From assembly GCA_012798115.1 (NCBI GenBank), contig JAAZNV010000007.1, positions 25,586-89,585 of the forward strand: DNA of 64,000 bases, written 5' to 3'. Below, piece by piece: positions 785-43,373 of this stretch (its first letter is position 1; every line of letters starts with the position of its first letter). The stretch is from a candidate division WWE3 bacterium. Its GTDB lineage: Bacteria; Patescibacteriota; WWE3; UBA101185; UBA10185. The translations under genes and the position numbers were made by a program. The notes under the pieces were generated by a model. It saw only the letters and a list, made by a program, of their open reading frames with translations. It was not told the DNA's origin and did not search any database.

Positions 785-838
785 TTTACTCTCCTTTATC
801 TTTATGTTTTTAAGGTTCTTCTAGCTAATTTATCCTTC

Positions 839-1777: not shown

Positions 1778-1792
1778 TTTGTAATCTCCTAT

Positions 1793-2082: not shown

Positions 2083-2088
2083 GGGAGC

Positions 2089-2117
2089 AATATATACAAT
2101 TTTAGTAGGATTGTCAA
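2089..2117 (-). promoter_or_regulatory. sigma70-type promoter for the T-box leader (TTGACA-17-TATATT)
   Basis: Perfect -35 TTGACA (2112-2117), 17-nt spacer, -10 TATATT (2089-2094) on minus strand. Confidence 0.5.
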
Positions 2118-2185
2118 CAAGGGTGCAATTAGTTAAGTAGCTTAATATTTATTGTTCTATAACTTTTTATACATAAACAAAAAAC

Positions 2186-2222
2186 CAGAAGAAACGTGCT
2201 GTGAACAATCTCTTCTGGTTGT
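2186..2222 (-). terminator. Rho-independent terminator of 2228..3295 gene
   Basis: 8-bp stem CCAGAAGA/TCTTCTGG followed by U-run on minus strand directly after stop. Confidence 0.6.
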
Positions 2223-2227
2223 TAGTA

Positions 2228-3295: not shown

Positions 3296-3557
3296 TTTTT
3301 ACCTTGTTTTGTTGCACATCTCCTTGCTTGAGTAGTAGTGGTTGAATAGTGTATTTCGATCATTTTCTGCCTTTATTTACTTAAGTTATATTCTGTTATC
3401 AAAGGGCTACTACTCTTTACTTTCAAGCAATTATATATAGGTTGTATAAAAAGTCAAATACAAACGTCAATTAAAAATACTTAATTTGCATGATTGAAAT
3501 TATTTTTATGTATAATAACTTTAATAAAAAGTGAGAAGATCTCGTTCACTCTATAAG

Positions 3558-5013: not shown

Positions 5014-5023
5014 TCGTGTGGCA

Positions 5024-5051
5024 ATTATATTACCTACATTATTGATGTCAA
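5024..5051 (-). promoter_or_regulatory. consensus sigma70 promoter (TTGACA-16-TATAAT) giving a near-leaderless mRNA for 4213..5013
   Basis: -35 at 5046-5051, -10 at 5024-5029, only 10 nt between -10 and ATG, no SD. Confidence 0.45.
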
Positions 5052-5122
5052 AATAATTGGGTTAACTAATATTAATCCCATGTAATATACCTTTAACAAG
5101 GTTACCCCTTAAGGTAAGCAGG

Positions 5123-5158
5123 AACAAATAGACCCAGAAAGTTTCTAATTTCTGGGTC
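5123..5158 (-). terminator. Rho-independent terminator of tyrS
   Basis: 10-bp perfect stem GACCCAGAAA/TTTCTGGGTC followed by UAUUUGUU on minus strand downstream of tyrS stop. Confidence 0.6.
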
Positions 5159-5188
5159 CAAACGTTAAAAATAAATATCTAGAATCTT

Positions 5189-6427: not shown

Positions 6428-6498
6428 TTTTACTCCTTTCTACCATTTTACTATTTTGTTATAAAAGTTCTAGTACTTATTTTTCTTCGTTTTGTTGA

Positions 6499-6527
6499 AT
6501 ACTATATAAATTTAATTGTCTTGTCAA
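6499..6527 (-). promoter_or_regulatory. sigma70-type promoter of tyrS (TTGACA-17-TAGTAT)
   Basis: -35 6522-6527, -10 6499-6504 on minus strand, ~70 nt 5'UTR with GGAG RBS. Confidence 0.4.
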
Positions 6528-6775
6528 ATTAACTAAACGTTATACTTTACATGCACTACAGGTTGTCAGGTAAGCACACTAAACAGGCCTTATCAATTAC
6601 ACACTAATACTATCGTGTAAGATCGTAAGTCACCTGGGTTTATTTGCTAGAACTTTTCTTTACTGTAGGTGTAATGCTTTGTATACTAACGTTAAGAAGA
6701 AAAAAAACAACGTATTTCTTTATAAGGATGGAAACTGCTAGTGAGAGTACTTGTGGTTGTAGGCGGTTATGTTTT

Positions 6776-7066
6776 ATGAGTAATCTCTTTAGGAAGAAAA
6801 AAGAAAATTTTAAATGTGAAAACTGTGGACATGAAGTAAAAGGAAATGGATATACTAACCACTGCCCTATTTGCTTATATAGCAAACACGTAGATATATT
6901 TCCTGGGGATAGATTAGAAAAGTGTAAAGGTTTAATGAAGCCAATTAGTGTTGATAAAAAAGATGGAGAGTATGTTCTTATACACAAATGTATAAAATGT
7001 GGTGTGGAAAAAAGAAATAAAGTATCTAAAGAAGATAACTTTGAAGAAATAATAAAATTAAGTTAG
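6776..7066 (+). CDS. RNHCP-domain zinc-ribbon protein
   Basis: CENCGHEV...GYTNHCPICLYSKHVD...CIKCG matches RNHCP domain; start taken at internal Met (ORF track begins at 6644). Confidence 0.5.
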   Translation: MSNLFRKKKENFKCENCGHEVKGNGYTNHCPICLYSKHVDIFPGDRLEKCKGLMKPISVDKKDGEYVLIHKCIKCGVEKRNKVSKEDNFEEIIKLS

Positions 7067-7076
7067 GATCTTAATA

Positions 7077-7688
7077 TTATTCTTGTATGCTGATATCAGA
7101 TAAAAAGCCTTTAATTTCTTCATCTGAGACGTATTTGTTTTCTAAGTAATCAATTGTCTCAGAATAATCTATGTCTTGGTAGTATGAAAGTTGCTCTCTG
7201 AATAGTTTTTCATTAAACTCTTGACCAAATATTTCCTTTGCTCTTGTTGTAATGTCAGAAAATTTATTTTCTTTAAAAACAAAGAATAAATCAACGTAGT
7301 CCTTCCATTTTGCTCTTTTTCCTAAGGCAAAAGCTTTCATTGCGGAAAGAGTACTTAGATTTGGTAGTTTAATTATATTTTCAAATGTCTCAGAGTAGTC
7401 TATTTCAAACGGATATGTGAGAAAAGTAAGTTTCACATTATTTACAACAATAGTTAATTCCTCTGTATTTTCTACTAGTGTGTTTTGGATTTGGTATGAT
7501 TGCCTAATTTTGTTTCTAACTTTATCGTGATCAAAGCTCTTGTCTATGAAAAGGTCATAATCTATAGATCTTCTATGCCCAATTTGTAATGCAATAGCAG
7601 TGCCTCCCACTAAACCAAACTCACTAGAAAATGTTTGTAGTAAGGGCAAAAGTTTAATTTGTTCCTCATTTAAAACTTCTTTATGCAT
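7077..7688 (-). CDS. nucleotidyltransferase, AbiEii/AbiGii-toxin-like (DUF1814) family
   Basis: FGLVGGTAIALQIGHRRSIDYDLFI matches the GGTAL...R.S.DiD NTase signature of AbiEii-type toxins. Confidence 0.55.
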   Translation of the reverse strand: MHKEVLNEEQIKLLPLLQTFSSEFGLVGGTAIALQIGHRRSIDYDLFIDKSFDHDKVRNKIRQSYQIQNTLVENTEELTIVVNNVKLTFLTYPFEIDYSETFENIIKLPNLSTLSAMKAFALGKRAKWKDYVDLFFVFKENKFSDITTRAKEIFGQEFNEKLFREQLSYYQDIDYSETIDYLENKYVSDEEIKGFLSDISIQE

Positions 7689-7971
7689 TCTTGTTTAAGT
7701 ATAAAGTAAAATAATTTATTGTTTGAGGTTTTAAGTTTGTTCTCTTTTTACTTGAAATTTCCTTAAATAGTTTATTTATTTCCTTTATGCCAAGTAGTTT
7801 TTTAATATATTGAAAGTCTTCCCAGTTGCCGTAGTTAAATATACTTTCAGCAATAACCTGATATGACAAATTATCATAGTTTGATGTACCCCATGCCAAA
7901 TATGGCCTGGATTTAATATAGCTTCTTGCCTCATTAAGTAAAGGATCAATCATACCCATATTATAGCTCAT
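7681..7971 (-). CDS. small hypothetical protein, putative cognate partner (antitoxin-like) of the AbiEii-like NTase
   Basis: 96 aa, overlaps downstream NTase gene by 8 nt (translational coupling). Confidence 0.35.
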   Translation of the reverse strand: MSYNMGMIDPLLNEARSYIKSRPYLAWGTSNYDNLSYQVIAESIFNYGNWEDFQYIKKLLGIKEINKLFKEISSKKRTNLKPQTINYFTLYLNKNA

Positions 7972-8013
7972 TACTTGTTGTATTTATAATACAGTGTTAT
8001 AAATTAATATAGT

Positions 8014-8409
8014 ATGCAAGAAGAAAATAAAAAAATAAAAAATAATATATTAATAATAGAAGATGAACATGATATTAGATCTATATACGTAGAAGTATTA
8101 AATTCTGCTGGATACAATGTAGATGAAGCTGGAGATGGTGAATCAGGAATGAATAAGATTAAAAATACAGATTGGAATCTTCTTCTTTTAGATATAATGC
8201 TTCCTGGAAGAGATGGTTTGAAGATTCTTAAAGACTTAAAAGAAAATCCTCAGTTTAAAAAAGGTCCTGTTATTGCTTTAACTAATTTGAATAGTGAAAA
8301 TATTATTCAGGAAGCTTTTAGTTCTGGAGCAGATGGTTATTTAATAAAATCAGAAGTTACACCAGATAAGGTTATAGAAGAAGTTGGAAAAGTATTAGGT
8401 AAAGAATAG
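8014..8409 (+). CDS. stand-alone response-regulator receiver (CheY-like) domain protein
   Basis: IEDE...LLLLDIMLPGRDGL...ALT...GADGYLIK receiver motifs (phospho-acceptor Asp in LLDIML). Confidence 0.75.
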   Translation: MQEENKKIKNNILIIEDEHDIRSIYVEVLNSAGYNVDEAGDGESGMNKIKNTDWNLLLLDIMLPGRDGLKILKDLKENPQFKKGPVIALTNLNSENIIQEAFSSGADGYLIKSEVTPDKVIEEVGKVLGKE

Positions 8410-8490
8410 TTCTCTACTCTGCATTAATAATGCTCTAATGTAAATCCCTGGAATATGTGTTGATTTATTTTTGTCTTTTGTGTTACCATT

Positions 8491-8545
8491 TTCTCTCGCG
8501 CGAGAAAAGAACCGAGACTTTAAACTTTTGGTTTATTGTCTCGGT
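8491..8545 (-). terminator. putative terminator downstream of lipoprotein gene (hairpins ACCGAGAC/GTCTCGGT and TTTTCTC/GAGAAAA)
   Basis: 8-bp inverted repeat immediately after stop codon, U-rich tract follows on minus strand. Confidence 0.3.
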
Positions 8546-8547
8546 CT

Positions 8548-9243
8548 TTACGGTTGAAGCTCTCTAAGTGTCAGCAAATTGCTGTTATAGAGCTTCTGTA
8601 CTTGTTCGTTGGATAGTGGAACAATGTTCGTTATCCACCAACCCCTCAGTTCCTTTGGAAGCTCGATTGTTTCATTAAGAAGGACCGTTTCCTCACGGGT
8701 ATCCACTACTTCTTCACTGAATACACTCAACTTCCTCTTGGCATCGTTACTAAGGTAAGCACTATCAAGAATGGCTACAGCATATCTCCCTTCTCTGTTG
8801 GGTGTATGGCCACTTTCAGCGATTATCATGTACATTCCTGATTGCTCCTGAGGTTTGCCTAGTGGAAAGTCCTCTGTGTTGAATTGTACGTAGAAGCATA
8901 AGGAACCATCAGTACTGTAGGTGACATACCAATGGTTCATACTACCCTCAAAACATTCTACTACACGTAAATCTAATCCAAGCGTCTTTGTTACTGCATA
9001 GAACACACGTGCATTGTCAGTTAGATTTTCTTCTTGTACAGAGGCCACTACTGGAACGACAGGAGAAGGTTGTGCAACTGGTGTGCTAGTACTAGTAGGT
9101 TGCACCGTTGGTGTTGGTGAAATTGTTGCAGTGGAAGTAGCAGTTGCAACCAACGCTTGTTCAGTCTTAGCATCTGCCGTTTTGCTGCTACATGCTGAAG
9201 CAACTGTCGCCAACAACACAAGCAAAACCAATAGCCGTTTCAT
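8548..9243 (-). CDS. lipoprotein with Thr/Pro/Ser-rich linker
   Basis: MKRLLVLLVLLATVASAC lipobox; start moved to internal Met preceding signal peptide. Confidence 0.6.
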   Translation of the reverse strand: MKRLLVLLVLLATVASACSSKTADAKTEQALVATATSTATISPTPTVQPTSTSTPVAQPSPVVPVVASVQEENLTDNARVFYAVTKTLGLDLRVVECFEGSMNHWYVTYSTDGSLCFYVQFNTEDFPLGKPQEQSGMYMIIAESGHTPNREGRYAVAILDSAYLSNDAKRKLSVFSEEVVDTREETVLLNETIELPKELRGWWITNIVPLSNEQVQKLYNSNLLTLRELQP

Positions 9244-9367
9244 TCTATCTCCTTTCCTTGTATTTTTCCTGTAATCATTATAACACTTCTCTTCTTCCAT
9301 TTCAACTACTATAAGCCCCAGTGTTTTTAAAGGTAAGTGTAATTGAAATGTGATAACATAAATCTAT

Positions 9368-10021
9368 ATGGCTCTGCCTATTTCCAATAGGAAATTAAAA
9401 ATCAAGTATTTAGCAATTCCAATGGGCATTATCTTTTGTTTGTTTACAGTGTATTGGTTTTTCCCTGTGTTAGTTGGTACATGGAGCTTTATAACTGGAT
9501 ACTTTAATAGGTCTAAAGATACTATTAGTATAGTAAATGATACAACTACTGAAATTGAAAGTATATATTCCAATATAAAGATGGAAGACTTCACACCAAG
9601 TGAGGACACTTTATCATCTCCTGAAATATGGAATCCTAGTTTAGTTGACTTTTATTCTTTTATTGATTCCTACTTTAGATCCATTAATAGGGATGGTTTT
9701 TGGGGCAATTGGAACTACAACAACTCCTATGTCTTTGGAGACGTGCTATCTTTTGATAAGGAAAATAACACTGTCAAAGTCTTTATTTCTCTACCTGATA
9801 ATCAACCTTTCTCTAAAAAGGTACAAGATATTCTTGTTAAATGTACTAAAGAAACATCTTCAATTATTTCTAGCAATAACTTAATAGCAAAAGAACAAAA
9901 CGTTGATTTATTTGATGTTATGATCCCTGGAAAGGATTCAATATATTTTTATTGTTTAGACAAAGATTGTAGTTCTATGGGAGCATCTTGTATTCTTGTA
10001 AGATATGAAGAAGTTAAGTGA
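9368..10021 (+). CDS. membrane-anchored hypothetical protein (first gene of pilus-associated block)
   Basis: N-terminal TM segment, extracytoplasmic Asn/Ser/Thr-rich body; overlaps next gene by 17 nt. Confidence 0.4.
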
Positions 10022-12197
10022 TTTAAGCTTAAATAAAAAATTGTTAAGAGTTGTTATTGCTTTAGTTTCTTTGTTTGTCTTTTGTTTGTTTTTAAAAACT
10101 AAAGCTGCTTGTGATTGCAAAGGTCCTGCTTACTCTGATTCTGAGTGGTGGCAGTGTAGTTCTAATATGTGTTGTAAAGGTCAAGGTTGTCCATCTTGGG
10201 TGTGTAGGTATGAAACTACATGTGTTTGGTCTGGAATAGAATATGATACTTGCTGGGATTATGTTTGTACTTGTTCTAGGTACAGAGTGATTGGTGGGGT
10301 AAGGGAGTGTGTTTCTCAAACATGTAAATGGAAATCTCGTAATTGCAATGCTCATTCAGTTTGTTATAAAACAGAAACTACACCTGTATATTGCAACGGT
10401 TCTTGTTATATATGCCCTACGGATTGCAATAAGATAGATGGAGGATGGTCATCATGGAGTACCTGTTCTGCAGTATGTGGAGGAGGAACTCAAACAAGAA
10501 CATGTACTAATCCTTCCCCATCATGTGGAGGATCATCATGTTCTGGAGCATCATCTCAAGCTTGTAATACTCAAGCATGTGATGTTCTACCCATTGGTGC
10601 TCATGATTCTTCAAATTGCAGTTGTTCCGGTCAAGTTACAGCAAGTGGATGGGCTTGTGATCAAAACAACTGGTCATCTGATCTACAAGTAGATTTCTAT
10701 AGAGATGGAACATCATCAACAGGAATATCCATTGGATCAGCTACAGCAGGTACTTCAAGACCAGACTTAGGAAGTGGCTGTGGTGGAGATATAAACCATG
10801 GATTTAAATTTACTTCATCTCCTCAACCTACCGGTCCCCATACAATTTATGCTTATGCTATAGATGTACCACTTGGTACTAGTAAACTGCTTAGTAACTC
10901 TCCAAAGTCAATTACTTGTGGATTAACATACACACTAAAGATAAACATTAAAGATGCAGAAAGTGGATGTTCTTCTCTTGGATCAGGAATTGAAGGAGCT
11001 AAAGTTTATGTATATAAATCAATTGGAGGAATAGCAGGAGATCCGCTAACAGGATCTCCAGCTACATCTGACTCAAATGGAGTTGCAACATTTGAAAATG
11101 TTTCAGTTTCAGATAAAAGCTTTATCATTTCAGTATCTAAATCAACAGGAGGATCAAATCCAATATATTACCAACTAACCTGTCCAACACTATCACTATA
11201 CAAGATAACTTTAAATCCTTCTCCTACTGCTTGTTCTACTCAAACTATCAATCTTGGAATAAAACAAATTAAGAAAGATCCATGGTTAACAGTAATAGAT
11301 GGAGATATCTTTTCATCAAATGTATCTGTTGTTGTTCCTCAAGGAGAAGGATCAGGTGATTTTTCCTTATCTCTTGTAAACTCCAGAGAAGAAGGATCAT
11401 CAGGTATAGGAGGATATATATTTACCAAGGGATATATATCAACAAATGATAACTCTTTGTATGAGCCTAGTCTTGGAGGAAAGATCTTTGATATATCCCA
11501 AAGATCAAGCTTAAATCATGATGATATATCTTTAATGAACCTATCAAAAAGAAACTTTTCTCCACCTTTACATGATATGGTTGTAGAAACATCAAACATA
11601 TCATCATTTGAAGCAGGAAAAGTATACAAGATATCAGTTTTGGATTTTAACAATAAAATCTCATCTTCTCCAGTTGTCTATACAATATCTTCATCATCTG
11701 AAGAAGAGTTATCTTCAAAAGGAGTATCAACTGCAATACTATACATAACAAGTGATAATAATGATACTGATATAGTCTTTAAAAACTCATATACATCATC
11801 AAATAACAACTCAAGGTTAATAATAGTTACAGATTTAAATGTTGTAGTATCATCAAATGTTGGATTTTCTAACATATCAACATACACCATAAACTCTTTA
11901 CCATTAATTCAAGCTGCAATAATATCATCAAAAGATATATCTTTTGAATCCAAAGGCACTTCTCCTGCATCAGATATTCCTATCATGGTAACAGGACCTT
12001 TGATTACCTCATCAAATATATTACGAGGAAGAAACATTGGATCATTAAATGGGTATTATCCTTCCTTAGCAGTATCTTTTTATCCTAAGTATCTTTATGA
12101 TATTGCAGTTATAGAAAGATACATGTCAAAAACATATGATATAAGATCATATACAGGTATTTCTTCTTATGATCTTCAATTTGATTATCAACCTTAG
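10005..12197 (+). CDS. large secreted Cys-rich protein with thrombospondin type-1 repeat, CarbopepD_reg-like beta-sandwich and Ser/Thr-rich stalk; putative pilus-associated adhesin
   Basis: N-terminal TM/signal; 40+ Cys in first 200 aa; [45 protein letters not shown] = canonical TSP1 (WSxWSxCSxTCGxGxQxRxR.C) motif; C-terminal ~400 aa S/T/N low complexity. Confidence 0.6.
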
Positions 12198-12301
12198 GTC
12201 TGTATGAATATATAGTAGTGTATACATAGTATGAACAGTTGTAGTTTGATATAGATCAAAACAAAGTTTAATATTAAATTAAATCAAACAAATTAAACAC
12301 A

Positions 12302-13159
12302 ATGAAAATTGAGAACATAAGAACAAAACAAAAAGGACAAACCTTACTATTTGTTATAGTAGCTGTAACAATAGCAATGGCAGTAGGGGTATCAGTATCA
12401 ACTAGAACGCTAGATTTAACAAGAAGAGTATCAAGAACAGACACATCCGCACGAGTACTAGCAGCATCAGAAGGTGGCATAGAAAGACTTTTAACTCAAT
12501 CAGAAGCTTTCTTAGACAGCTTAGAAACTACAAATCCTGACTGTGCACAAGCAGGTGGAGAACCTTATACAGATGGGAAGTGTATCATTTCATTTTCTTC
12601 TTCTCCTGAAGATAAGATTACCTCAGTAGCCATAATCGATGCAGAAAAATTTAAATTAAATGGACCTGATTATTACTGGTTTGATTTAGATCCAGGGTAC
12701 ATAAAGGAAGTAAATCTAGAAGGATACACAAGTAGTAAAATTGAAGTATGTTGGGATAACAAAGATGCTGCATTGTATTTCTTTTCTTATAACAAATCAT
12801 CTAAAATAAAAAAGGGTGGTTTTTACTCTGAAGAATTTCCAAATAAAGAAGTTGTATCTGGATTGGTACAAAAGACTAAAACTAGAACTGAACACGATGC
12901 TTGTGGAGACATTGACTTAGTATCTAATCCTTATGGATTAAGATTAAAAACGTTCTTTGCTTCTGCAAAAATTTATGTTTATCCTACTGGAGGAGCAACA
13001 GGCAGTTTTCCTTATCAAGGTTATAAACTAATGTCAAAAGGAGAACTTTCTATTGAAAATGATGTTACTGACTCAAAAACAGTAAATGTTTATAGATCTC
13101 ATCTTTATGCACCTTCTGTTTTTGATTACGCTTTATATACAAGTGGAAACTTAGATTAG
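12302..13159 (+). CDS. PilX_N-like minor pilin / pilus assembly protein
   Basis: KGQTLLFVIVAVTIAMAVGVSVSTRTLDL N-terminus (prepilin-like without Glu5) typical of PilX_N; paralog of 17138..17965. Confidence 0.5.
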   Translation: MKIENIRTKQKGQTLLFVIVAVTIAMAVGVSVSTRTLDLTRRVSRTDTSARVLAASEGGIERLLTQSEAFLDSLETTNPDCAQAGGEPYTDGKCIISFSSSPEDKITSVAIIDAEKFKLNGPDYYWFDLDPGYIKEVNLEGYTSSKIEVCWDNKDAALYFFSYNKSSKIKKGGFYSEEFPNKEVVSGLVQKTKTRTEHDACGDIDLVSNPYGLRLKTFFASAKIYVYPTGGATGSFPYQGYKLMSKGELSIENDVTDSKTVNVYRSHLYAPSVFDYALYTSGNLD

Positions 13160-13206
13160 CTAAATGCTTACCTACCCTGCTCTTTTATTAATGAGAATTG
13201 TTTTTC

Positions 13207-13235
13207 TTGACTTTAAGTGATTGCCAAATCATACT
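13207..13235 (+). promoter_or_regulatory. candidate promoter of pilin operon (TTGACT-17-CATACT)
   Basis: sequence match only. Confidence 0.25.
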
Positions 13236-13316
13236 TGTAGTACGGCAACAAAGTAACTTAGCTGCCATAATTTAGAAATTATAAAAGTTATATTGTTGTA
13301 AGGAGGTGACCTGTAG

Positions 13317-13898
13317 ATGAAAAAGTTAAATAAAAATAATGGTTCGGAAACAGGTTTTACGCTTATTGAACTTCTTATAGTCATAGTCATCATTGGTATA
13401 TTAGCAGGAGTACTTATTGCAGTTGTTAATCCATATAGACAACAAAACAGAGCTAGAAATGCAACGATAAAAGCATCTTTAACCAAGGTTGCTTTTGGCA
13501 TAAACACAGCAAGAGCTTCTCTTGGTAGACTTCCATCCAGTAGTGAACTAGCAGTAGAGCTTGACAATGTTACTCCTAATGCAGATTGCACTGGTGCTGA
13601 TGAATTAGATTGTAGGTTTACTTTAAGTGGGACAAGTTTACCTAGTACTTGTGATGCAGGTTTAATTGCAGGAGATACAGAAACAGGATCAAAATGCAGT
13701 ATGGCAATTTCTACGACCAATGCAGGTAGTTTAGTAAACGGAGCCTTTAGAATTACTGCTAAACAATTTAAGATTAATCCAGCAGATGTTGGTGCAGTAT
13801 TTGTTTTTGATTCAACAAGAGGCTTATGGTCTTGCCCGTCTGATGTTAATTATTCAACAGTTGATTTAGCATCTAGCTGCACAGAAGTAACGGAATAA
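13317..13898 (+). CDS. type IV pilin (probable major pilin, PilA-like)
   Basis: ETGFTLIELLIVIVIIGILAGV class III signal (G-1, E+5); C-terminal Cys pair; RBS AAGGAGGTGA. Confidence 0.8.
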   Translation: MKKLNKNNGSETGFTLIELLIVIVIIGILAGVLIAVVNPYRQQNRARNATIKASLTKVAFGINTARASLGRLPSSSELAVELDNVTPNADCTGADELDCRFTLSGTSLPSTCDAGLIAGDTETGSKCSMAISTTNAGSLVNGAFRITAKQFKINPADVGAVFVFDSTRGLWSCPSDVNYSTVDLASSCTEVTE

Positions 13899-13904
13899 CA
13901 ACTT

Positions 13905-14360
13905 ATGAATAAAAAGAATGGATTCACATTGATAGAAATGATGATAGTTGTGGTTGTAATTTCTATACTTAGTGGTGTTGTTGTGTCTGTATTAAACCAA
14001 GGAAAACAAAGGGATAGAGCTAAAGACTCAGTAAGTCTTGCAAATTTAGAAAAGGTAGTTTCAGCCATTGAATCTTACTTTTATTCGGAAGGAACCTATC
14101 CAACAATTGAAAGTACTGATAATGGAAATCCGTTAAACAACAGTTCGAACATAGTTCTTGATCAATACGTACAAATATGGCCAGAAGGATTTGTCTACAT
14201 TTATGATAATTCATCAAATCAATTTGCTGTTTATGTAAAAAGAATCTCTAATGATAATTACTATAAATTTTCTTCAACAAGTGGTGAAATACAAGAGTGT
14301 TATGGCAGCACGCTTGAGATTCAAGAAAGAGTTTCTGCTTGTGATGTAGTTACTAATTAA
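13905..14360 (+). CDS. type IV pilin-like protein
   Basis: KNGFTLIEMMIVVVVISILSG prepilin N-terminus. Confidence 0.75.
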   Translation: MNKKNGFTLIEMMIVVVVISILSGVVVSVLNQGKQRDRAKDSVSLANLEKVVSAIESYFYSEGTYPTIESTDNGNPLNNSSNIVLDQYVQIWPEGFVYIYDNSSNQFAVYVKRISNDNYYKFSSTSGEIQECYGSTLEIQERVSACDVVTN

Positions 14361-14383
14361 TATTTATAACATATAATTAAAAT

Positions 14384-14953
14384 ATGAAACACTTCATGAG
14401 GGCAAATAAACAAATTAAAAAACAAAAAGGTTTTACGCTAATAGAATTGATGTTGGTTGTGCTAATAATTGGGATTCTAAGTGGAGTTACTTTAAGTGTA
14501 ATAAATATAAAAGGCATTCAGTCAAAGTCCAGAGATGCAAGAAGAGTTGGAGATTTGAAGAAAATGCAAACTGCTCTTGAGCTTTATTACTCAGATTACC
14601 GTGGTTATCCTATGAAAAGCACGTGGGAGAACGTTAATGATTCCTTATCAGTTTTATCTTTGGCTATTGTTCCAAGTTATATAAGCAAAATGCCTCTTGA
14701 TCCGTTGGAAGGAAAAGCTACTCCTGATAGCAACTGTTATGGGGGTGTTTCTGCACATGGTTACTATTATATCACTCCGGATTGCGTTGGAACTGGTTGC
14801 CTTGCAGGAAGATATATATTAGGGGCTGTTGTGGAAATTGAAACTAGTGCATCTGACAACCTTTGTTCCCAACTTACAAATTGTCTTCAAGGATATATCT
14901 CAAATTGCAATTGTGGGGGAAATTACTGTTATGCCGTTGAAAATCCACTCTAA
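14384..14953 (+). CDS. type IV pilin-like protein (Cys-rich C-terminus)
   Basis: KQKGFTLIELMLVVLIIGILSG prepilin N-terminus. Confidence 0.75.
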   Translation: MKHFMRANKQIKKQKGFTLIELMLVVLIIGILSGVTLSVINIKGIQSKSRDARRVGDLKKMQTALELYYSDYRGYPMKSTWENVNDSLSVLSLAIVPSYISKMPLDPLEGKATPDSNCYGGVSAHGYYYITPDCVGTGCLAGRYILGAVVEIETSASDNLCSQLTNCLQGYISNCNCGGNYCYAVENPL

Positions 14954-15461
14954 GTTAGCAAATAAACCTTTATGTTCACCCCCTACTTCTGCAGGATTTA
15001 CAATTATTGAGGTTGTAATTGTTACTGGTTTAATAATATTACTAGCTTCTCTTTTAATTATTAATGTTGACCCCGTTGGAAGCAAAAAGAAGTCAAGAGA
15101 TGAAAAGAGAATGTCAGATGTTTCAACTATAGATAGAGCTATAAGCGAGTTTGTAGCAGATAAAAAAAGATACCCAGATCAATCTAACATATTAAGACAA
15201 AGTACTATTCTTCCTGCAGGATCTTCCCAGCTTACTAGCTCAAAATCAGGATGGATTCAAGAAGACTTATCTTCTTACTCCTCTCTTCTTCCAATAGATC
15301 CTTTAAATGATGATTTATACCATTATTACTATATTCACAATCTTAATAGTTATGAAGTAAATGCAAAGTTAGAAATACTCACTACTGAAATGATAAATGA
15401 TGGTGGTAACGATGATTCTTTTTACGAAATTGGTAACAACTTAAACTTAATTTCACCATAA
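14931..15461 (+). CDS. type IV pilin-like / pseudopilin
   Basis: SAGFTIIEVVIVTGLIILLASL; start set at internal ATG 14931 (track ORF starts 14829 inside previous gene). Confidence 0.6.
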   Translation: MPLKIHSKLANKPLCSPPTSAGFTIIEVVIVTGLIILLASLLIINVDPVGSKKKSRDEKRMSDVSTIDRAISEFVADKKRYPDQSNILRQSTILPAGSSQLTSSKSGWIQEDLSSYSSLLPIDPLNDDLYHYYYIHNLNSYEVNAKLEILTTEMINDGGNDDSFYEIGNNLNLISP

Positions 15462-15484
15462 TTTTTGTGATAATATAAACTCAT

Positions 15485-16018
15485 ATGACTCTGCCCACAA
15501 AAAACTCAGCATTTACTCTAATTGAACTTCTTCTTGTTGTTACAATCATATCTATCATTTCAGTAGGGGTGATTCCTGCATTTACTTCCTATATTAGAAA
15601 TCAAAACTTGAAACAAGCTCAAGAGCAAATAAAGAGTGATTTAAGAAGTACTCAAAACAAAGCATTAACTGGTTCCTTATCAGATCAGTTTATTGGCAGT
15701 GCCTTAATGAAATTCTGGGGAATAAAATTTACCAATAATAGTTCAACTTATGATTTTTTTATATCTTCTGTTGATGATTCTTGTCCTATAAACTATGTTC
15801 AAGGACAGTATCAAGGAAATGGAAAATTATCTAATAATTTAAGAATACAAAATTTTAATGAAGGTCAATCTGGTTGTTTATTCTTTAATGTTCAAGATGG
15901 GGGTATTTCTTCGCCAGGGTTTGGGAGTGCTGGTTCTGTAGTTGTTGGATATTCTGTTTCAGAAGTCAAAAACGTTTTTTTCAACAGTTCAGGTTTGATT
16001 TATTCAACTAATGATTAA
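15485..16018 (+). CDS. type IV pilin-like / pseudopilin (Ala at -1)
   Basis: KNSAFTLIELLLVVTIISIISVGV. Confidence 0.65.
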   Translation: MTLPTKNSAFTLIELLLVVTIISIISVGVIPAFTSYIRNQNLKQAQEQIKSDLRSTQNKALTGSLSDQFIGSALMKFWGIKFTNNSSTYDFFISSVDDSCPINYVQGQYQGNGKLSNNLRIQNFNEGQSGCLFFNVQDGGISSPGFGSAGSVVVGYSVSEVKNVFFNSSGLIYSTND

Positions 16019-16052
16019 ATTAAATGACTAAGATAAAGTAGATTAAATAATT

Positions 16053-16556
16053 ATGATGAGCATAAGAAAAAAAGAAAAAAGAAAAGAAAGGAACCAAGAT
16101 GGAATTGCTTTAGTAGAAGTTATTGCATCTATTGGAATAGCTGTTGTAGTCATTACATCTCTTGTTTCTTTGTCTATATCTACCTTAAGGACATCGTTGA
16201 AGAGTAAACTCTTGCTAGAAGGATCAAAAATAGCAAATAGAGAATTAGAATTAGTAAGGGCATATAGAGACAACAGCATTTCATGGGAGCAGTTTATATC
16301 TGATATAAGATTATGTGATACTGGTTGTTCTATGTTTACTGATGGTTCAGGTATAACTCCTCAAGCAACAGTTGAAAACGCTGACACAACAGAAGCTTTG
16401 GCTAGATCCTTTACAGCAACTACTCCTGAAGGCTTCCAACTTACGCCTGGCGTCGACAATATAGCTAGAATTTCTGTTTCTGTAACATGGACTGTAGGGG
16501 GAGAAATAAAAGGAACATACCTTTATACTGATTTAACCAACTGGAGATCTGAATAA
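16053..16556 (+). CDS. PilV/GspI-like minor pilin
   Basis: QDGIALVEVIASIGIAVVVITSLVSL (G-1, E+5). Confidence 0.6.
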   Translation: MMSIRKKEKRKERNQDGIALVEVIASIGIAVVVITSLVSLSISTLRTSLKSKLLLEGSKIANRELELVRAYRDNSISWEQFISDIRLCDTGCSMFTDGSGITPQATVENADTTEALARSFTATTPEGFQLTPGVDNIARISVSVTWTVGGEIKGTYLYTDLTNWRSE

Positions 16557-17098
16557 TGACAAAAAAAAGTGGTTATGAAAGTCAAAAGGGCTTTACACTT
16601 ATAGAACTTCTTCTGGTAATTGCTCTCTTAGCAATATCAATTGGGGTTACTAACGATATTCTTATATCTTTAATTAGAAGTAATAATAAAACTCAAGTAA
16701 TGAATGAAATTGAGCAACAATCTAACTTTGTATCCTTAAAGGTCGAGAAAGAGCTGAGGAATGCTAGAGCAATAAACAACCCTGTTTCTGGAAGTAGCGG
16801 GACAATTCTTAGCTTTTCAACAAGAAATGGAGACACTATTGAGTATGAAGTCTTGTCTGGAGTAATTTATAGAAAACTAAACTCTGGTAATGCAATAGCT
16901 GTAACGTCAAGCGCTAGCCCTGGGGGTGTTATTGTATCTTGCAGTAATGGGGTAGATTCTTGTTTTTCTACATTTGGAGTTAATCCTCAAATAGTGAGTA
17001 TAAATATGGATTTCACTCAAGCTCAACCTAGTGCAGGTAGATCTTATACTGGAAAAGTTGGAATAAAAAGTACGATTGTTGTTAGAAACACTTACTAA
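16556..17098 (+). CDS. type IV pilin-like protein
   Basis: QKGFTLIELLLVIALLAISIGV. Confidence 0.75.
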   Translation: MTKKSGYESQKGFTLIELLLVIALLAISIGVTNDILISLIRSNNKTQVMNEIEQQSNFVSLKVEKELRNARAINNPVSGSSGTILSFSTRNGDTIEYEVLSGVIYRKLNSGNAIAVTSSASPGGVIVSCSNGVDSCFSTFGVNPQIVSINMDFTQAQPSAGRSYTGKVGIKSTIVVRNTY

Positions 17099-17137
17099 TA
17101 TGTTAGTTGAATAAATTGCTTTGGTTTTAGCAAAGAC

Positions 17138-17965
17138 ATGAATGATAAGAAAGAAATGTATGAGAAAAGAAAAGAAAAGGGTCAAACGCTTGTAGCAATA
17201 CTTGTTCTTATGGTTTTAGCTCTTACTGTTGGTGTTGTAGTTTCTAATAGGTTTATCAAAAGCTTAAAGGATATATCTCAATCTGATAATTCTTCTAAAG
17301 CACTTGCTGTTGCAGAAGCTGCTGTTGAAAGAATACTTCTTTTGCCCAATGAAACTCTTGAAGGGTATATTAATTTTGGTAATTGTAGCTCTGATTGTGT
17401 ACTGGAGATAACAGGAGTTCTTGGCCAAAAAGTAAGAGCAGATGTTTCTTTAAGTTTTATTGGTGCAAGTAACGAACCTTTTCAGCTGAAAGGAAAAGAA
17501 GGAGAAGTATCTCAAGTATCTTTAAGTGGATATACATCCGGAAGTACTTTAAGTGTTTGCTGGGATGATGATGCTTCTATATACGCTTCATATATTTATG
17601 AACAAAGTGGTGTAATTAAATCAAATGTTTATGCTTATAATGCAATAGGGTATAGTGGTTTTGACAATGGTTTTACTGAAGCAACCTCATCTCAAGGACA
17701 TCAAAATTGTTTTAATGTTATTGCATCAAATACTCCTAAACTTTTGAGAATAAAGCCGTTTCTGTCAGATCCAGTTATTTATGTTATTCCTTCTGGTGGA
17801 CAAAATCTTCCAAGCCAAGGTGTATTAATTACATCTACAGGAAGAGCAGGAAGTGCTATTAAAACAGTAAAAGTGTTGAAATCTATGTCTTCTGCTCCTG
17901 AATATTTTGATTTTGTAATTTATCAGAAGTCTTATACAGACCCATTGTCTAATAGGACTAACTAA
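17138..17965 (+). CDS. PilX_N-like minor pilin / pilus assembly protein (paralog of 12302..13159)
   Basis: KGQTLVAILVLMVLALTVGVVVS; shared blocks ARVLAASEGG/ALAVAEAAVE and VCWDNKDA/VCWDDDAS with first paralog. Confidence 0.5.
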   Translation: MNDKKEMYEKRKEKGQTLVAILVLMVLALTVGVVVSNRFIKSLKDISQSDNSSKALAVAEAAVERILLLPNETLEGYINFGNCSSDCVLEITGVLGQKVRADVSLSFIGASNEPFQLKGKEGEVSQVSLSGYTSGSTLSVCWDDDASIYASYIYEQSGVIKSNVYAYNAIGYSGFDNGFTEATSSQGHQNCFNVIASNTPKLLRIKPFLSDPVIYVIPSGGQNLPSQGVLITSTGRAGSAIKTVKVLKSMSSAPEYFDFVIYQKSYTDPLSNRTN

Positions 17966-17979
17966 TGTAACATTTCATT

Positions 17980-19011
17980 ATGCCCGTGATAGGTTTAAAT
18001 ATTGGAAAGAGGAGTTTTAGAGCAGTAGAGCTTGAAAGTAGAAAAGACAAGCTTGTATTGAATACTTTTGGCACCTTTATCAATCCTAAGATTACAACAG
18101 ATCCTAGTTCTTCGGAAGATGTAAAAATAGTTTCATCTGCTCTTGAACAGTTTGTTTCGGAAACAGGGTTTAGTACATCAGACGTTGTTCTTAGCATAGA
18201 TGAAACTCATGTATTCATGAGGATTATTAAACTTCCTATTATGAGTGATAAAGAATTAAAAAGTTCTATTAAATATGAAGCTGAGCAATATATTCCTCTG
18301 CCCCTTGACCAGGTTAATCTTTCTTACCAAAAGATTGATCAAGATATCACTGAAAAGGGAAAAATGAGTGTTCAAATTGTTGCAGCCAGAAAGGATATTG
18401 TAAATAAATACGTAGATATACTTAGAAAGGCTAAACTCGTTCCAAGAGCCATAGAACCTGAAACAATAGCCTTAGGAAGAGCTCTTGGTGATTCTCTTAA
18501 TGCTCCGTCTGGCACAATGATTTTAGAAATGGGATATGGAAGTACCTTAATTATTGTTTGTTATGGCGGCTTTGTTAGATTTACAAGAGCTATTCCAATT
18601 GGGGGTGATGTAATTACCAAAACTTTAATGCAAAGTCTTAGTTTAGATCATGAACAAGCTGAAGAGTATAAAAAGGCCTATGGTCTTGATGATTTTCAAG
18701 GAGAAGGAAAAGTTGCTCAGGTAGTAAAACCAATAATTGATAATTTAATACTTGAAGTTCAAAGAGCAGCTGTTTTCTTCACAAATCATAATCCATCTGC
18801 TAACATAAAAAGAGTTATCTTAAGCGGAGGTACTGCCCTGATGCCTAATCTTTTATCTTATGTTGCTAATAAACTTGATTTAGAAGTAATACTTGCTAAT
18901 CCTTTGAATAATATTGAGATATCTCCTAAGATAGAAAAACAAAAACAACTTCTTATTGATGAAGCTCCAAGTTATGCTTCTGCAATTGGTTTAGCTTTAA
19001 GGAGGGTTTAA
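17980..19011 (+). CDS. pilM: type IV pilus assembly ATPase-fold protein PilM
   Basis: 343 aa actin-like fold, IGLNIG...AVEL N-terminus, position immediately upstream of pilN/pilO. Confidence 0.75.
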   Translation: MPVIGLNIGKRSFRAVELESRKDKLVLNTFGTFINPKITTDPSSSEDVKIVSSALEQFVSETGFSTSDVVLSIDETHVFMRIIKLPIMSDKELKSSIKYEAEQYIPLPLDQVNLSYQKIDQDITEKGKMSVQIVAARKDIVNKYVDILRKAKLVPRAIEPETIALGRALGDSLNAPSGTMILEMGYGSTLIIVCYGGFVRFTRAIPIGGDVITKTLMQSLSLDHEQAEEYKKAYGLDDFQGEGKVAQVVKPIIDNLILEVQRAAVFFTNHNPSANIKRVILSGGTALMPNLLSYVANKLDLEVILANPLNNIEISPKIEKQKQLLIDEAPSYASAIGLALRRV

Positions 19012-19593
19012 ATGGTTAGTAGCGATATTAATCTTATTCCACAAGAAGAAATAATTGTTCAAAAGAAAACAAAAGCTGTGAAAGCAAGCACTTACGTTGC
19101 TCTAGGCGCCCTTGTATTGTCAGCACTTGTATCTTTGTACCTTTTCTTGGCTGCTAAGAGCATAAAAACCCAAATTGCTCAAATAGATGTAGATATAAAC
19201 TCACTAAGAAGCCAAATTTCTAATCTCAGCCAAGTGGAAATATCTGCTAGAAACTTGGATAAGAAATTTAATATTCTACAAACACTTTTTAAAGAAAGAC
19301 CAAGATACTCCCTTCTTTTAGAAGAAATAAAAAACAGAAATCCAGAAGGGCTTTTAGTTGAAAGCATGGATGTTAAATCCGGTCAAGCTACCTTATCTGG
19401 TGTTGCTGGAGATTATATTGCTATTGCTAGCTTTATTAATAATTTAGTGGATAAGAATTTTGAGGGTGGCAATCCTCCTCTTAAGGATGTATTCACTTCA
19501 GTCACATTAAATTCCGTTAATCTTGAAAAATCCACCAACCAAGTAAAGTTTTTTATTGTAGTTAATTTTGATGAAGGTAAACTTAAGCAATGA
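19012..19593 (+). CDS. pilN: type IV pilus assembly protein PilN
   Basis: N-terminal INLIP(QE) motif (PilM-binding INLLP), single TM, coiled-coil periplasmic domain. Confidence 0.65.
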   Translation: MVSSDINLIPQEEIIVQKKTKAVKASTYVALGALVLSALVSLYLFLAAKSIKTQIAQIDVDINSLRSQISNLSQVEISARNLDKKFNILQTLFKERPRYSLLLEEIKNRNPEGLLVESMDVKSGQATLSGVAGDYIAIASFINNLVDKNFEGGNPPLKDVFTSVTLNSVNLEKSTNQVKFFIVVNFDEGKLKQ

Positions 19594-20411
19594 ACCCCGA
19601 AGAAAAGAAAGAAGAAAAAAGTACGAAAGGACTTAATATAGATACAGAAAAGATTAAAAAAACACTTCTTAACTTTGTTGTTCCTTTGGTAGCTTCTGTA
19701 ATTACTTTATTTCTTTTTGTTCTTGTAATATACCCATCTTTGAAAAAGCTGCCTGATCTTAAGTTGGAGCTATCTAGAAAAGTTAATATGAAGCAAACTT
19801 TGAATACAAAGCTTCAGAGATTAAACAGGTTAGTAGATTTTAAAGTTGTTGTTGATGAAGATTCAGCTTTAGTAAATAGAGTTCTTGTTTCGGAAGAAGA
19901 AGTTCCAAGACTTTTAGATCAAGTAAATCAAATAGCTACAAACTCAGGTATGTCCGTAACAAGACTTAGTTACTCATATGGAAGCATTGGAGCATCCGAT
20001 AAAACACAAAAGATTCCTTACAGCGTTGTATCTGTTTCTCTAGGAGCAGATGCTAATTATGATCAGATTATTTTGCTTATGCAGTCAATTGAAAAGGCTG
20101 CAAGGTTCGTATCGGTTCCAAATTTTAGATATTCTGCTGGAACTTCATCCACAGGAGATAGAAAGTTAACTTCAAGTTTTTCAATTGATTCTCCTTATCT
20201 TTTTGTTCAATCAAGTGCTGTAACTGATGAACCCATTGATCTTGATATATCAAGTCAAAAGTTCATTGATTTTATTAACAATATAAAAGAACTTACATAT
20301 TATGAGTTTGTTAATCCAAATATTGAAGTAGTGAAAGAAGAAGTAGAAGAAACTAAAGAAGAAACAACTACTATTGAGACACAAGAAAGTAGTAGTGAAC
20401 CATCAAATTAA
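19590..20411 (+). CDS. pilO: type IV pilus assembly protein PilO-like with acidic C-terminal tail
   Basis: single TM after charged N-terminus, coiled coil, position after pilN, 4-nt overlap. Confidence 0.55.
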   Translation: MNPEEKKEEKSTKGLNIDTEKIKKTLLNFVVPLVASVITLFLFVLVIYPSLKKLPDLKLELSRKVNMKQTLNTKLQRLNRLVDFKVVVDEDSALVNRVLVSEEEVPRLLDQVNQIATNSGMSVTRLSYSYGSIGASDKTQKIPYSVVSVSLGADANYDQIILLMQSIEKAARFVSVPNFRYSAGTSSTGDRKLTSSFSIDSPYLFVQSSAVTDEPIDLDISSQKFIDFINNIKELTYYEFVNPNIEVVKEEVEETKEETTTIETQESSSEPSN

Positions 20412-20417
20412 GTAAGC

Positions 20418-21119
20418 TTACTTTTTCTTAGATTGCTCTTTTCTCCACTTTTTTATTTCTTTATGATTTCCACTTAACAAAACATTTGGGACTTGCAACC
20501 CTTCAAAGTTTTCTGGTTTTGTATATTGGGGGTACTCAACTTGATTGTTATTTCCTAGGGAAAATGATTCTATCTTGGAAGCTTCTTCTTTTTCTAAAAC
20601 TCCAGGTAGTATTCTAGTTACGCTTTCCATGATTGCGAGTGCAGGAATCTCTCCTCCGCTTAAAATATAATTTCCAATGGATATGACATCAGTAGATATA
20701 TAGTCTTCCACTCTAGCATCTATCCCTTCATATCTACCACATATTAGTGTAACTTGTGTACATTTTGATAGTTCTCTAACTTTTTCTTGGTTGTATATAC
20801 TTCCTCTTGGGGAAAGAACAACTATCCTATGTCCTTTCGGCAGGTTCTTTTTGGTAGGATCTTGTATGTATTTTTTCATTACATCCTCCTTATATATTGT
20901 TGTTAATGCCTTGAATATTGGTTCTATCATGAGAACCATTCCCACTCCGCCACCATATGTTTTATCATCAACAGAACCATATTTATTCACGGAAAAATCT
21001 CTTAAATTGATTAATTTATATTCAGCAATTTTTTCTTCAAATGCTTTTTTAAATGGAAGGTTCTTTAAACTTTCTTCGAAAATTTGAGGAAAGAGTGTAA
21101 TTACGTTAAACTTTATCAT
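20418..21119 (-). CDS. trmD: tRNA (guanine37-N1)-methyltransferase TrmD
   Basis: TLFPQIFE, YGGGVGMVL, SPRG, LICGRYEGIDARV motifs. Confidence 0.9.
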   Translation of the reverse strand: MIKFNVITLFPQIFEESLKNLPFKKAFEEKIAEYKLINLRDFSVNKYGSVDDKTYGGGVGMVLMIEPIFKALTTIYKEDVMKKYIQDPTKKNLPKGHRIVVLSPRGSIYNQEKVRELSKCTQVTLICGRYEGIDARVEDYISTDVISIGNYILSGGEIPALAIMESVTRILPGVLEKEEASKIESFSLGNNNQVEYPQYTKPENFEGLQVPNVLLSGNHKEIKKWRKEQSKKK

Positions 21120-43372: not shown

Positions 43373-43373
43373 A

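What the first reader, a model, noticed from the sequence alone, without database searches (positions are those of the whole stretch)
12302..20411. Compact type IV pilus locus with seven prepilins, two PilX_N-like paralogs and pilMNO but no ATPases, platform or prepilin peptidase
Nine consecutive same-strand genes encode class III signal peptides (GFTLIE-type with G/A at -1 and Glu+5). Two others are PilX_N-like proteins lacking Glu5 (KGQTL...), at 12302 and 17138. pilM, pilN (INLIP motif) and pilO follow. pilB/pilT, pilC and pilD are not in the window, so the motor and peptidase must be encoded elsewhere. This unusually large pilin repertoire, bracketed by duplicated PilX-like genes, suggests a modular or heteropolymeric pilus or antigenic variation. 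The block ends convergently on trmD, replacing the usual rimM/rplS segment.
Basis: partly seen in the sequence, partly recalled or inferred. Interest (0 to 1): 0.55.

Follow-up and report, generated by a model that had tools for sequence, protein, structure and literature searches.

The report
Ordinary WWE3 type IV pilus locus
This is the pilin and alignment-protein half of the standard type IV pilus gene cluster of an uncultivated WWE3 (Patescibacteria) bacterium; its "missing" motor and peptidase genes lie just outside the window, and the one less ordinary part is a strain-variable, adhesin-like protein paired with an extra cap-pilin gene.

Summary
Seven Glu5 prepilin genes, two paralogous pilin-like genes without Glu5 (X1 at 12302, X2 at 17138) and pilM-pilN-pilO sit on one strand and end convergently on trmD. 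No pilB, pilT, pilC or pilD is in the window.

The interpretation mostly fails. A contig from the same population, 99.2% identical over window 3-5570, continues leftwards with pilB, pilT, pilC, another pilin and pilD, 2.4-8.5 kb before the window start. In relatives these genes adjoin the pilin block, so an insertion of about 8 kb and the window edge created the "motor-less" look.

The pilin count is normal for the lineage: four GspG/major-like pilins, then an H-I-J-K-type minor-pilin block whose last member is X2. Six related loci have the same layout. Repeat searches found no silent cassettes or long near-identical repeats, so nothing supports antigenic variation of the pilins. The trmD junction is conserved in every relative whose contig reaches it.

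One part is less ordinary. X1 always follows a large secreted protein, here 10005-12197. That protein has a strain-variable Cys-rich thrombospondin N-half, a conserved solenoid C-half resembling ComZ and ice-binding proteins, and a conserved strand-like C-terminal peptide. I read this pair as an alternative PilY1-like tip adhesin module, but that is inferred.

The parts
8014..8409 (+). Stand-alone response-regulator receiver (131 aa), a conserved upstream neighbour of the pilin block. Its partner GAF-HisKA kinase lies outside the window.
   Evidence: Pfam Response_reg 4.2e-25. 91.5% identical to the L018 regulator. A regulator sits next to the pilin genes in L008, L018, L019, L020 and L026. 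A role in pilus regulation is inferred from this synteny only.
9368..10021 (+). p217: membrane-anchored protein of unknown function. It overlaps the start of the large protein by 17 nt and lies in the strain-variable cassette.
   Evidence: No Pfam hit. Weak homologs occupy the same position in L006 and L018. A co-occurring strain (L009) has an unrelated 217-aa protein here.
10005..12197 (+). Big: a 730-aa secreted, adhesin-like protein. It has a signal peptide, a Cys-rich region with one TSP1 repeat (aa 147-192), a CnaB/transthyretin-like sandwich, an ice-binding-protein/ComZ-like beta-solenoid and a conserved extreme C-terminal peptide ([15 protein letters not shown]).
12302..13159 (+). X1: a Glu5-less pilin-like protein (285 aa), paralog of X2. 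It lacks the X2 C-terminal tail and is always paired with Big.
   Evidence: KQKG|QTLLF leader. 30% identical to X2, E 3e-27. 77 homologs, all with an invariant G-Q and a highly conserved hydrophobic helix. No Pfam or NCBIfam hit.
13317..13898 (+). A1: prepilin (193 aa), GspG/major-pilin-like. First gene after a 157-nt gap, with a strong AGGAGG ribosome-binding site. Fast-evolving.
   Evidence: N_methyl 1e-6. GspG 4.5e-10 and TIGR02532. RBS. Only the N-terminus is conserved against L008.
13905..14360 (+). A2: prepilin (151 aa), GspG/ComGC-like.
   Evidence: N_methyl 1.7e-9. GspG 4.7e-11, ComGC 2.8e-10.
14396..14953 (+). A3: prepilin (185-189 aa) with a Cys-rich C-terminal domain. Orthologs occur in all relatives.
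   Evidence: N_methyl 1.5e-8. 57% identical to L006 and 36% to L008 over the full length.
14931..15461 (+). A4: prepilin (176 aa), T2SSG-like, paralog of the pilin encoded next to pilC outside the window.
   Evidence: Start revised. T2SSG 0.0009. GspG 5.1e-8. The L018 pilin161 is 29% identical over its full length.
15485..16018 (+). GspH/ComGD-position minor pilin (177 aa, Ala at -1).
   Evidence: N_methyl 1.2e-6. Best NCBIfam hits ComGD 1.8e-9 and GspH 3.7e-7. Orthologs in all relatives. The class assignment rests on gene order plus weak HMM hits.
16053..16556 (+). GspI/ComGE-position minor pilin (167 aa), non-canonical G|IALVE.
   Evidence: Sequence. Only a weak HpsC pseudopilin hit, 1.2e-4. 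Conserved orthologs. The class is inferred from position.
16556..17098 (+). GspJ/ComGF-position minor pilin (180 aa).
   Evidence: N_methyl 3.4e-7. ComGF 7.3e-9 is the best NCBIfam hit. Start overlaps the previous gene by 1 nt.
17138..17965 (+). X2: Glu5-less cap pilin in the GspK/PilK/ComGG position (275 aa). It has a pilin helix, a beta-jelly-roll domain and an invariant C-terminal tail YQKSxxxPLSNR.
17980..19011 (+). pilM (343 aa).
   Evidence: PF11104 5.7e-59 over the full length.
19012..19593 (+). pilN (193 aa) with the N-terminal INLIP motif.
   Evidence: PF05137 6.2e-8. Sequence.
19590..20411 (+). pilO (273 aa) with an acidic C-terminal extension. Its stop lies 6 nt from the convergent trmD stop.
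   Evidence: PF04350 7e-8.

Best explanation
The region is the filament-subunit and alignment-complex half of the single, lineage-typical type IVa-like pilus supercluster of a candidate division WWE3 (Patescibacteria) bacterium.

In relatives the ancestral order is contiguous: pilB-pilT-pilC-pilin-(RNHCP)-pilD-(histidine kinase)-(RNHCP)-response regulator-small membrane protein-Big-X1-three to five major-like pilins-H-I-J-X2-pilM-pilN-pilO, ending convergently on trmD. In this genome an unrelated block of about 8 kb (GCS2 to a second tyrS) plus an AbiE toxin module was inserted between the kinase and the RNHCP/regulator genes. The window starts inside that insertion, so the motor genes fall just outside it.

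Proposed mechanism (inferred from family knowledge):
- PilD processes the seven Glu5 prepilins.
- The H-, I-, J-position pilins and the Glu5-less X2 form the tip or priming complex on the PilC/PilMNO platform.
- PilB polymerises one or more of the GspG-like pilins (A1-A4, or the pilin next to pilC) beneath that complex.
- PilT retracts the fibre.
- There is no secretin, which fits the cell envelope reported for these bacteria.

The upstream pair Big + X1 is best read as an accessory, alternative tip module. X1 would be a second cap pilin. It would carry a large secreted protein whose variable Cys-rich N-half binds the target and whose conserved solenoid C-half and strand-like C-terminal peptide dock on the cap pilin, as PilC/PilY1 does on PilK.
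For: Shown:
- Pilin, PilM, PilN and PilO assignments.
- Tight spacing from A1 to pilO, from -23 to +39 nt.
- L021 overlaps window 3-5570 at 99.17% identity and carries PilB (T2SSE 3.7e-126 plus MshEN), PilT (T2SSE 1.9e-40), PilC (T2SSF 2.2e-61), a pilin and PilD (A24_N_bact 6.3e-24, Peptidase_A24 3.9e-7) at window coordinates -8529 to -2429.
- Contiguous superclusters in L018 and L026, and the same pilin-HIJ-X2-MNO-trmD order in L005-L008, L019, L020 and L025.
- The source is a WWE3 metagenome-assembled genome, proteins NMB91593-91604.
- Literature: WWE3 genomes encode a full type IV pilus set including pilT (PMC3812714). Candidate-phyla-radiation pili lack PilQ (10.1101/335083). Tip complexes are capped by a Glu5-less subunit (PMC10191384).

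For the Big + X1 module:
- Adjacency in 7 of 7 loci, with overlapping or closely spaced genes.
- A conserved Cys-free C-half and a conserved alternating-hydrophobic C-terminal peptide, disordered in the monomer model.
- X2 has a conserved C-terminal tail that X1 lacks. This parallels the cis versus trans strand supply described in PMC13533445.
- Precedent in Saccharibacteria: PilX1 with a jelly-roll domain and PilX2 as an adhesin, both without a canonical PilD signal (PMC12206443).
Against: - The motor genes were seen on a 99.2%-identical contig from a related sample, not on the window's own record, so a strain difference is conceivable.
- The H, I and J assignments rest on gene order and weak HMM hits. 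PDB sequence searches matched only the N-terminal helix.
- The solenoid fold is also found in ice-binding proteins and adhesins unrelated to pili.
- No multimer model or expression data links Big to X1, or X1 to the I-J pair.
- It is unknown whether PilD cleaves the KG|Q leaders.
- The major pilin is not identified.
Confidence: 0.85

Rival explanations
1. One reading: a self-contained, motor-less pilin island whose large, duplicated repertoire serves a heteropolymeric pilus or antigenic variation.
For: Nine pilin-type genes lie in 5.7 kb and two paralogs flank them. A1 and A2 diverge fastest between relatives.
Against: The motor genes lie 2.4-8.5 kb beyond the window edge and are contiguous with the block in relatives. 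Each pilin has a positional ortholog in relatives. No long or near-identical repeats, silent copies or invertible segments were found. The strain-level variation seen lies in Big and p217, not in the pilins.
Confidence: 0.05
2. The system is chiefly a competence (DNA-uptake) pseudopilus of the Com/T2SS type, not an adhesive or motile pilus. Big would then be a ComZ-like DNA receptor rather than a host adhesin.
For: The best NCBIfam hits are to GspG/ComGC, ComGD and ComGF. The Big solenoid resembles ComZ, which binds DNA (PMC6561018). Candidate-phyla-radiation genomes carry ComEC and DprA and depend on scavenged nucleotides (PMC3812714; 10.1101/335083).
Against: PilM, PilN, PilO and PilT are present, which are T4aP features absent from Com systems (table in PMC10191384). 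The Big N-half is made of Cys-rich TSP1-type modules and varies between strains, which suits a cell-surface ligand better than DNA. Function is not exclusive, because T4aP often do both.
Confidence: 0.25
3. Big and X1 have nothing to do with the pilus tip. Big would be an independent secreted or cell-wall adhesin, X1 a membrane-anchored protein, and their position next to the pilins would reflect co-regulation only.
For: Big has a Sec-type signal and no pilin segment. No interaction was tested. The complete WWE3 genome locus (L008) has a full pilin set without either gene.
Against: X1 is a full-length paralog of the cap-position pilin X2, with the same G-Q leader. Pairing holds in 7 of 7 loci across X1 identities of 34-66%, sometimes with overlapping reading frames. 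The extreme C-terminus of Big is conserved while its N-half is not, as in PilC/PilY1 (PMC13533445).
Confidence: 0.3

Closest known systems
Type IVa pilus machinery of monoderm-like bacteria and Patescibacteria (for example Nanosynbacter lyticus TM7x locus one; WWE3 RAAC2 genome)
   Same: It has PilB, PilT, PilC, PilD, PilM, PilN and PilO, several prepilins and no secretin. It has PilX-type minor pilins with a beta-jelly-roll C-domain and no canonical PilD signal (PMC12206443; PMC3812714; 10.1101/335083).
   Different: This genome has one machinery set rather than TM7x's two. The supercluster is split by an insertion. It has two X paralogs sharing a single H-I-J set. No experiment exists for WWE3.
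Core minor-pilin tip complex GspH-I-J-K / PilH-I-J-K / ComGD-E-F-G
   Same: Four consecutive genes follow the major-like pilins, and the last lacks Glu5 and is the largest. The best HMM hits to ComGD and ComGF fall on positions 1 and 3. The X2 model shows pilin-fold matches to GspI and GspK (PMC10191384).
   Different: Sequence similarity beyond the N-terminal helix is negligible. X2 carries a jelly-roll domain instead of GspK's alpha-helical insert. The I-position pilin starts with Ile, not Phe/Met.
PilC/PilY1 (and MshQ) tip adhesins docking on PilK by C-terminal beta-strand addition
   Same: Big is a large secreted non-pilin protein encoded beside a Glu5-less cap pilin. It has a variable N-half, a conserved C-half and a conserved extreme C-terminal peptide (PMC13533445).
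   Different: Big has no beta-propeller. Its conserved domain is an ice-binding-protein-type solenoid plus a CnaB-like sandwich. The gene lies upstream, not downstream, of the cap pilin. There is no sequence homology to PilY1, and docking is untested.
Thermus thermophilus ComZ and cyanobacterial PilX (solenoid-bearing tip pilins)
   Same: An ice-binding-protein-like beta-solenoid is associated with a GspK-like cap pilin at a type IV pilus tip (PMC6561018; 10.64898/2026.02.12.705559).
   Different: In ComZ and cyanobacterial PilX the solenoid is inserted into the pilin polypeptide. Here solenoid and pilin are separate gene products.

Membership tests
Type IV pilin (class III signal peptide) | Short basic leader ending in Gly (or Ala), then a hydrophobic ~20-aa segment with Glu at +5 | tested here: met
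   Seven ORFs show it. N_methyl/TIGR02532 is above cutoff for five. 14931 is sub-threshold and 16053 is met by sequence inspection only.
Type IV pilin (class III signal peptide) | Cleavage and N-methylation by the prepilin peptidase | not testable with these tools
   PilD is encoded on the adjoining contig. Processing was not assayed.
T4aP machinery | PilM-PilN-PilO alignment subcomplex | tested here: met
   PF11104 5.7e-59, PF05137 6.2e-8, PF04350 7e-8, all above the gathering scores.
T4aP machinery | Extension ATPase, retraction ATPase, platform protein and prepilin peptidase in the same genome | tested here: met
   They are absent from the window. They are present on L021, which is 99.17% identical over the 5.6-kb overlap with the window's left end. 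This is met for the population. The window's own record beyond position 1 was not readable.
T4aP machinery (diderm type) | PilQ secretin and PilP | tested here: not met
   There is no secretin domain in the window or in the loci with gene calls, L018-L021, L025 and L026. This is as reported for the candidate phyla radiation (10.1101/335083). It is therefore the monoderm-type variant.
Pfam PilX_N (PF14341) | Match to the PilX N-terminal model | tested here: not met
   X1 and X2 have no hit even at E 10. Three of 44 family members match, best E 0.0015. UniRef nevertheless names both proteins this way.
GspK/PilK/ComGG cap minor pilin | Pilin fold, no Glu5, last gene of a syntenic I-J-K block | tested here: met
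GspK/PilK/ComGG cap minor pilin | Forms a heterotrimer with the I and J pilins at the tip | not testable with these tools
   No multimer prediction or biochemistry was available.
PilC/PilY1 tip adhesin | C-terminal beta-propeller domain homologous to PilY1 | tested here: not met
PilC/PilY1 tip adhesin | Extreme C-terminal strand completes the PilK sheet | not testable with these tools
   A conserved, alternating-hydrophobic C-terminal peptide is present and disordered in the monomer model. Docking was not modelled.

The most novel reading that the evidence does not exclude
WWE3 bacteria build two alternative pilus tips on one shared I-J pair. A plain tip is capped by X2, whose own conserved C-terminal tail completes the cap. 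An adhesive tip is capped by X1, which is completed in trans by the conserved C-terminal peptide of Big. Big is a solenoid protein whose Cys-rich thrombospondin-type N-half is swapped as a cassette between co-existing strains (window 8549-10435), which would set host or surface specificity. This would be a split-gene version of the ComZ/cyanobacterial PilX design and a non-propeller analogue of PilY1.
Probability: 0.3. Interest if true: 0.6.

Novelty: new member of a known kind. Interest (0 to 1): 0.3.

Why it matters
The main value is a correction. The [quoted passage not shown] is an effect of the window edge plus a local insertion, and the layout is the conserved WWE3 pilus supercluster.

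Type IV pili are thought to be central to how Patescibacteria attach to hosts and take up DNA, and no WWE3 member is cultivated. The Big + X1 pair gives a concrete, testable candidate for the host-recognition element in this lineage. Its allelic cassette could be tracked in metagenomes to link strains to hosts.

Tried and rejected
- The promoter and terminator scan of 7700-20700 gave counts no higher than shuffled sequence, so it is uninformative.
- PDB sequence searches with the H, I and J pilins matched only the N-terminal helix, or nothing.
- Walking off the window ends by exact-protein look-up: the left-end gene gave only 560 nt more. The right-end ORF is not on record. The Fic gene showed no pil genes within about 7 kb to the right.
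- The Foldseek afdb50 library was unavailable.
- I considered a diversity-generating retroelement as the source of the Big variation. No reverse transcriptase was found among the ORFs scanned, and the variation is wholesale cassette replacement rather than point hypervariation.
- I looked for rplS and rimM elsewhere in the window and found none.

Full report
**What is in the sequence**

The window has a low G+C content of about 33%. Between 12302 and 20411 all long ORFs lie on the + strand.

Seven ORFs begin with a short basic leader, Gly or Ala at -1, a hydrophobic segment and Glu at +5. Their starts are 13317, 13905, 14384/14396, 14931, 15485, 16053 and 16556. Two ORFs, X1 at 12302 and X2 at 17138, have the same kind of leader (KG|QTL...) but no Glu5.

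Pfam N_methyl passes its gathering score for five of the seven. The 14931 protein is T2SSG-like just below threshold. The 16053 protein (G|IALVE) has only a weak pseudopilin hit. A six-frame motif scan of the whole window finds these nine sites and one spurious antisense match. The cluster is therefore not a chance pattern.

PilM (5.7e-59), PilN (with INLIP) and PilO follow. The block ends 6 nt from the stop of the convergent trmD, which follows the KH gene and rpsP. The fifth gene should start at ATG 14931, as gene callers on identical contigs also place it.

X1 and X2 are genuine paralogs, 30% identical end to end with E 3e-27. The label "PilX_N" is only weakly supported. Neither protein matches PF14341 even at E 10, and only 3 of 44 family members do. 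UniRef does use that name.

**Where it comes from**

The proteins are identical to NMB91593-NMB91604 of a metagenome-assembled "candidate division WWE3 bacterium" (locus tags GYA37_01955-02010, contig 129,739 bp). PilM is 58% identical to that of the complete WWE3 genome RIFOXYC1_FULL_40_10, and 80-93% identical to other Patescibacteria genomes.

**The "missing" motor**

No ATPase, platform or peptidase is in the window. This was shown by Pfam scans of 50 ORFs, including all of 200 aa or more, and by tblastn with a relative's proteins.

I then searched with the PilC of a relative and looked up the hit P0153. That returned contig L021, from the same ENA sample as a contig carrying this locus. 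L021 matches window 3-5570 at 99.17% identity and continues to the left. In window coordinates it carries:

| Gene | Length | Window coordinates |
|---|---|---|
| PilB | 587 aa | -8529 to -6766 |
| PilT | 354 aa | -6699 to -5635 |
| PilC | 400 aa | -5632 to -4430 |
| canonical pilin | 164 aa | -4400 to -3906 |
| RNHCP gene | 149 aa | between the pilin and PilD, minus strand |
| PilD | 294 aa | -3313 to -2429 |
| GAF histidine kinase | 470 aa | -2476 to -1064, minus strand |

All have strong Pfam support.

In relatives L018 and L026 the same genes run straight into kinase-RNHCP-response regulator-small protein-Big-X1-pilins-X2-pilMNO. In this lineage the block GCS2-AstE-EamA-two unknowns-second tyrS, together with an AbiE module, separates the kinase from RNHCP (6776-7063) and the regulator (8014-8409). 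The "compact, motor-less" appearance is therefore the window edge combined with an insertion of about 8 kb.

**Is the repertoire unusual?**

It is not. L005, L006, L007 and L008 share the order of major-like pilins, three minor pilins, X2 and pilM. All but L007, whose contig ends inside pilM, continue through pilN-pilO to the convergent trmD. There are positional orthologs for A3, A4, H, I, J and X2. L018, L019, L020, L025 and L026 have the same layout with 6-8 Glu5 pilins.

NCBIfam gives GspG/ComGC-type best hits for A1-A4. It gives ComGD/GspH for 15485 and ComGF for 16556. [quoted passage not shown]

Repeat searches show only 62-73%-identical N-terminal coding stretches among the pilin genes, and no cassettes. 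Nothing supports antigenic variation of the pilins.

The rpsP-KH-trmD arrangement converging on pilO recurs in all seven related loci that extend past pilO. It is a conserved junction, not a replacement.

**The less ordinary part**

Directly upstream of X1 lies a 730-aa secreted protein, which I call Big (10005-12197). It is annotated as thrombospondin type-1 domain-containing.

In all seven loci that have an X1 homolog, a large protein sits immediately upstream, with gaps ranging from a 29-nt overlap to 104 nt. The complete WWE3 genome locus has neither gene.

These large proteins share a Cys-free C-terminal domain of about 420 aa, 26-54% identical. Their Cys-rich N-halves differ in length and domain order.

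The extreme C-terminus of Big is conserved in all seven loci, with consensus [YF]TG.x[ST][YF]D[LV][QD][FW].Y and an alternating hydrophobic pattern. The X2 family has an invariant C-terminal tail, YQKSxxxPLSNR, that the X1 family lacks.

This matches the scheme of Ellison et al. (PMC13533445). In that scheme the PilK sheet is completed either in cis, or in trans by the last ~10 residues of a large adhesin. I therefore propose that Big + X1 is an alternative, adhesive tip module. This is inference only, because no multimer prediction could be run.

**Strain variation**

Contigs from co-occurring strains are 98-99.8% identical to the window on both sides but carry unrelated sequence across 8549-10435. 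That stretch covers the minus-strand ORF 8548-9300, p217 and the first ~143 residues of Big. The breakpoint falls in the TSP1 repeat. Several assemblies also break at 12017 or 12172. The variation therefore lies in the putative adhesin, not in the pilins.

**Verdict**

This is a conserved Patescibacteria type IV pilus locus and a new member of a known kind. It carries one hypothesis-generating accessory module.

Confidence in the main explanation is 0.85. I put the alternative-tip reading at about 0.3.

Noticed in passing
window 8549-10435: A strain-variable cassette. Contigs L009 and L016 are 98-99.8% identical to the window on both sides but carry unrelated sequence here. It covers the minus-strand ORF 8548-9300, p217 and the first ~143 aa of the thrombospondin-domain protein. 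The breakpoint lies inside the TSP1 repeat. Several assemblies also end at 12017 or 12172.
   Followed up: partly
window 1-7688 (and about 1.6 kb left of the window, seen in L021 15218-16417): A block GCS2-AstE/AspA-EamA-two unknown ORFs-second tyrS, plus an AbiEii toxin module (7077-7688), lies between the histidine kinase and the RNHCP/response-regulator genes. Those genes are adjacent in relatives L018 and L026. It looks like an insertion that split the pilus supercluster.
   Followed up: partly
window 5189-6427 and 27460-28680: Two full-length tyrosyl-tRNA synthetase genes (tRNA-synt_1b plus S4) in a genome of the small, reduced type. One lies in the putative inserted block.
   Followed up: no
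window 42869-43799 (- strand): A membrane-anchored thioredoxin-like protein with CPRC (141 aa) sits next to a polytopic membrane protein with CPIC (167 aa). Neither has a Pfam hit. They may be the MdbA/VKOR-type disulfide system reported as enriched in the candidate phyla radiation, which would be relevant to the Cys-rich pilin A3 and to Big.
   Followed up: no
window 54758-57499: A segment with higher G+C (about 0.40 against 0.33) carries an AbiV-type HEPN protein and a histidine phosphatase. It is absent from the otherwise 98-99% identical contigs L012 and L013, so it is probably a strain-specific defence islet. A Fic protein lies nearby at 60292-61377.
   Followed up: no
window 6776-7063; L021 11814-12263; L018 2835-3278 and 5639-5929: Small RNHCP-domain (PF12647) zinc-ribbon genes consistently flank pilD and the histidine kinase in the pilus superclusters of this lineage. 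Their function is unknown.
   Followed up: no
L018 11624-13294: In a relative (X2 84% identical), the position of pilin A2 is taken by a 556-aa prepilin with a Gly_rich_2 domain. This shows modular expansion of a pilin at the same locus.
   Followed up: no
window 49696-51882 (- strand): A 728-aa protein with six or more NHL repeats (beta-propeller), a likely surface protein. It is conserved in the related strains L012 and L013.
   Followed up: no
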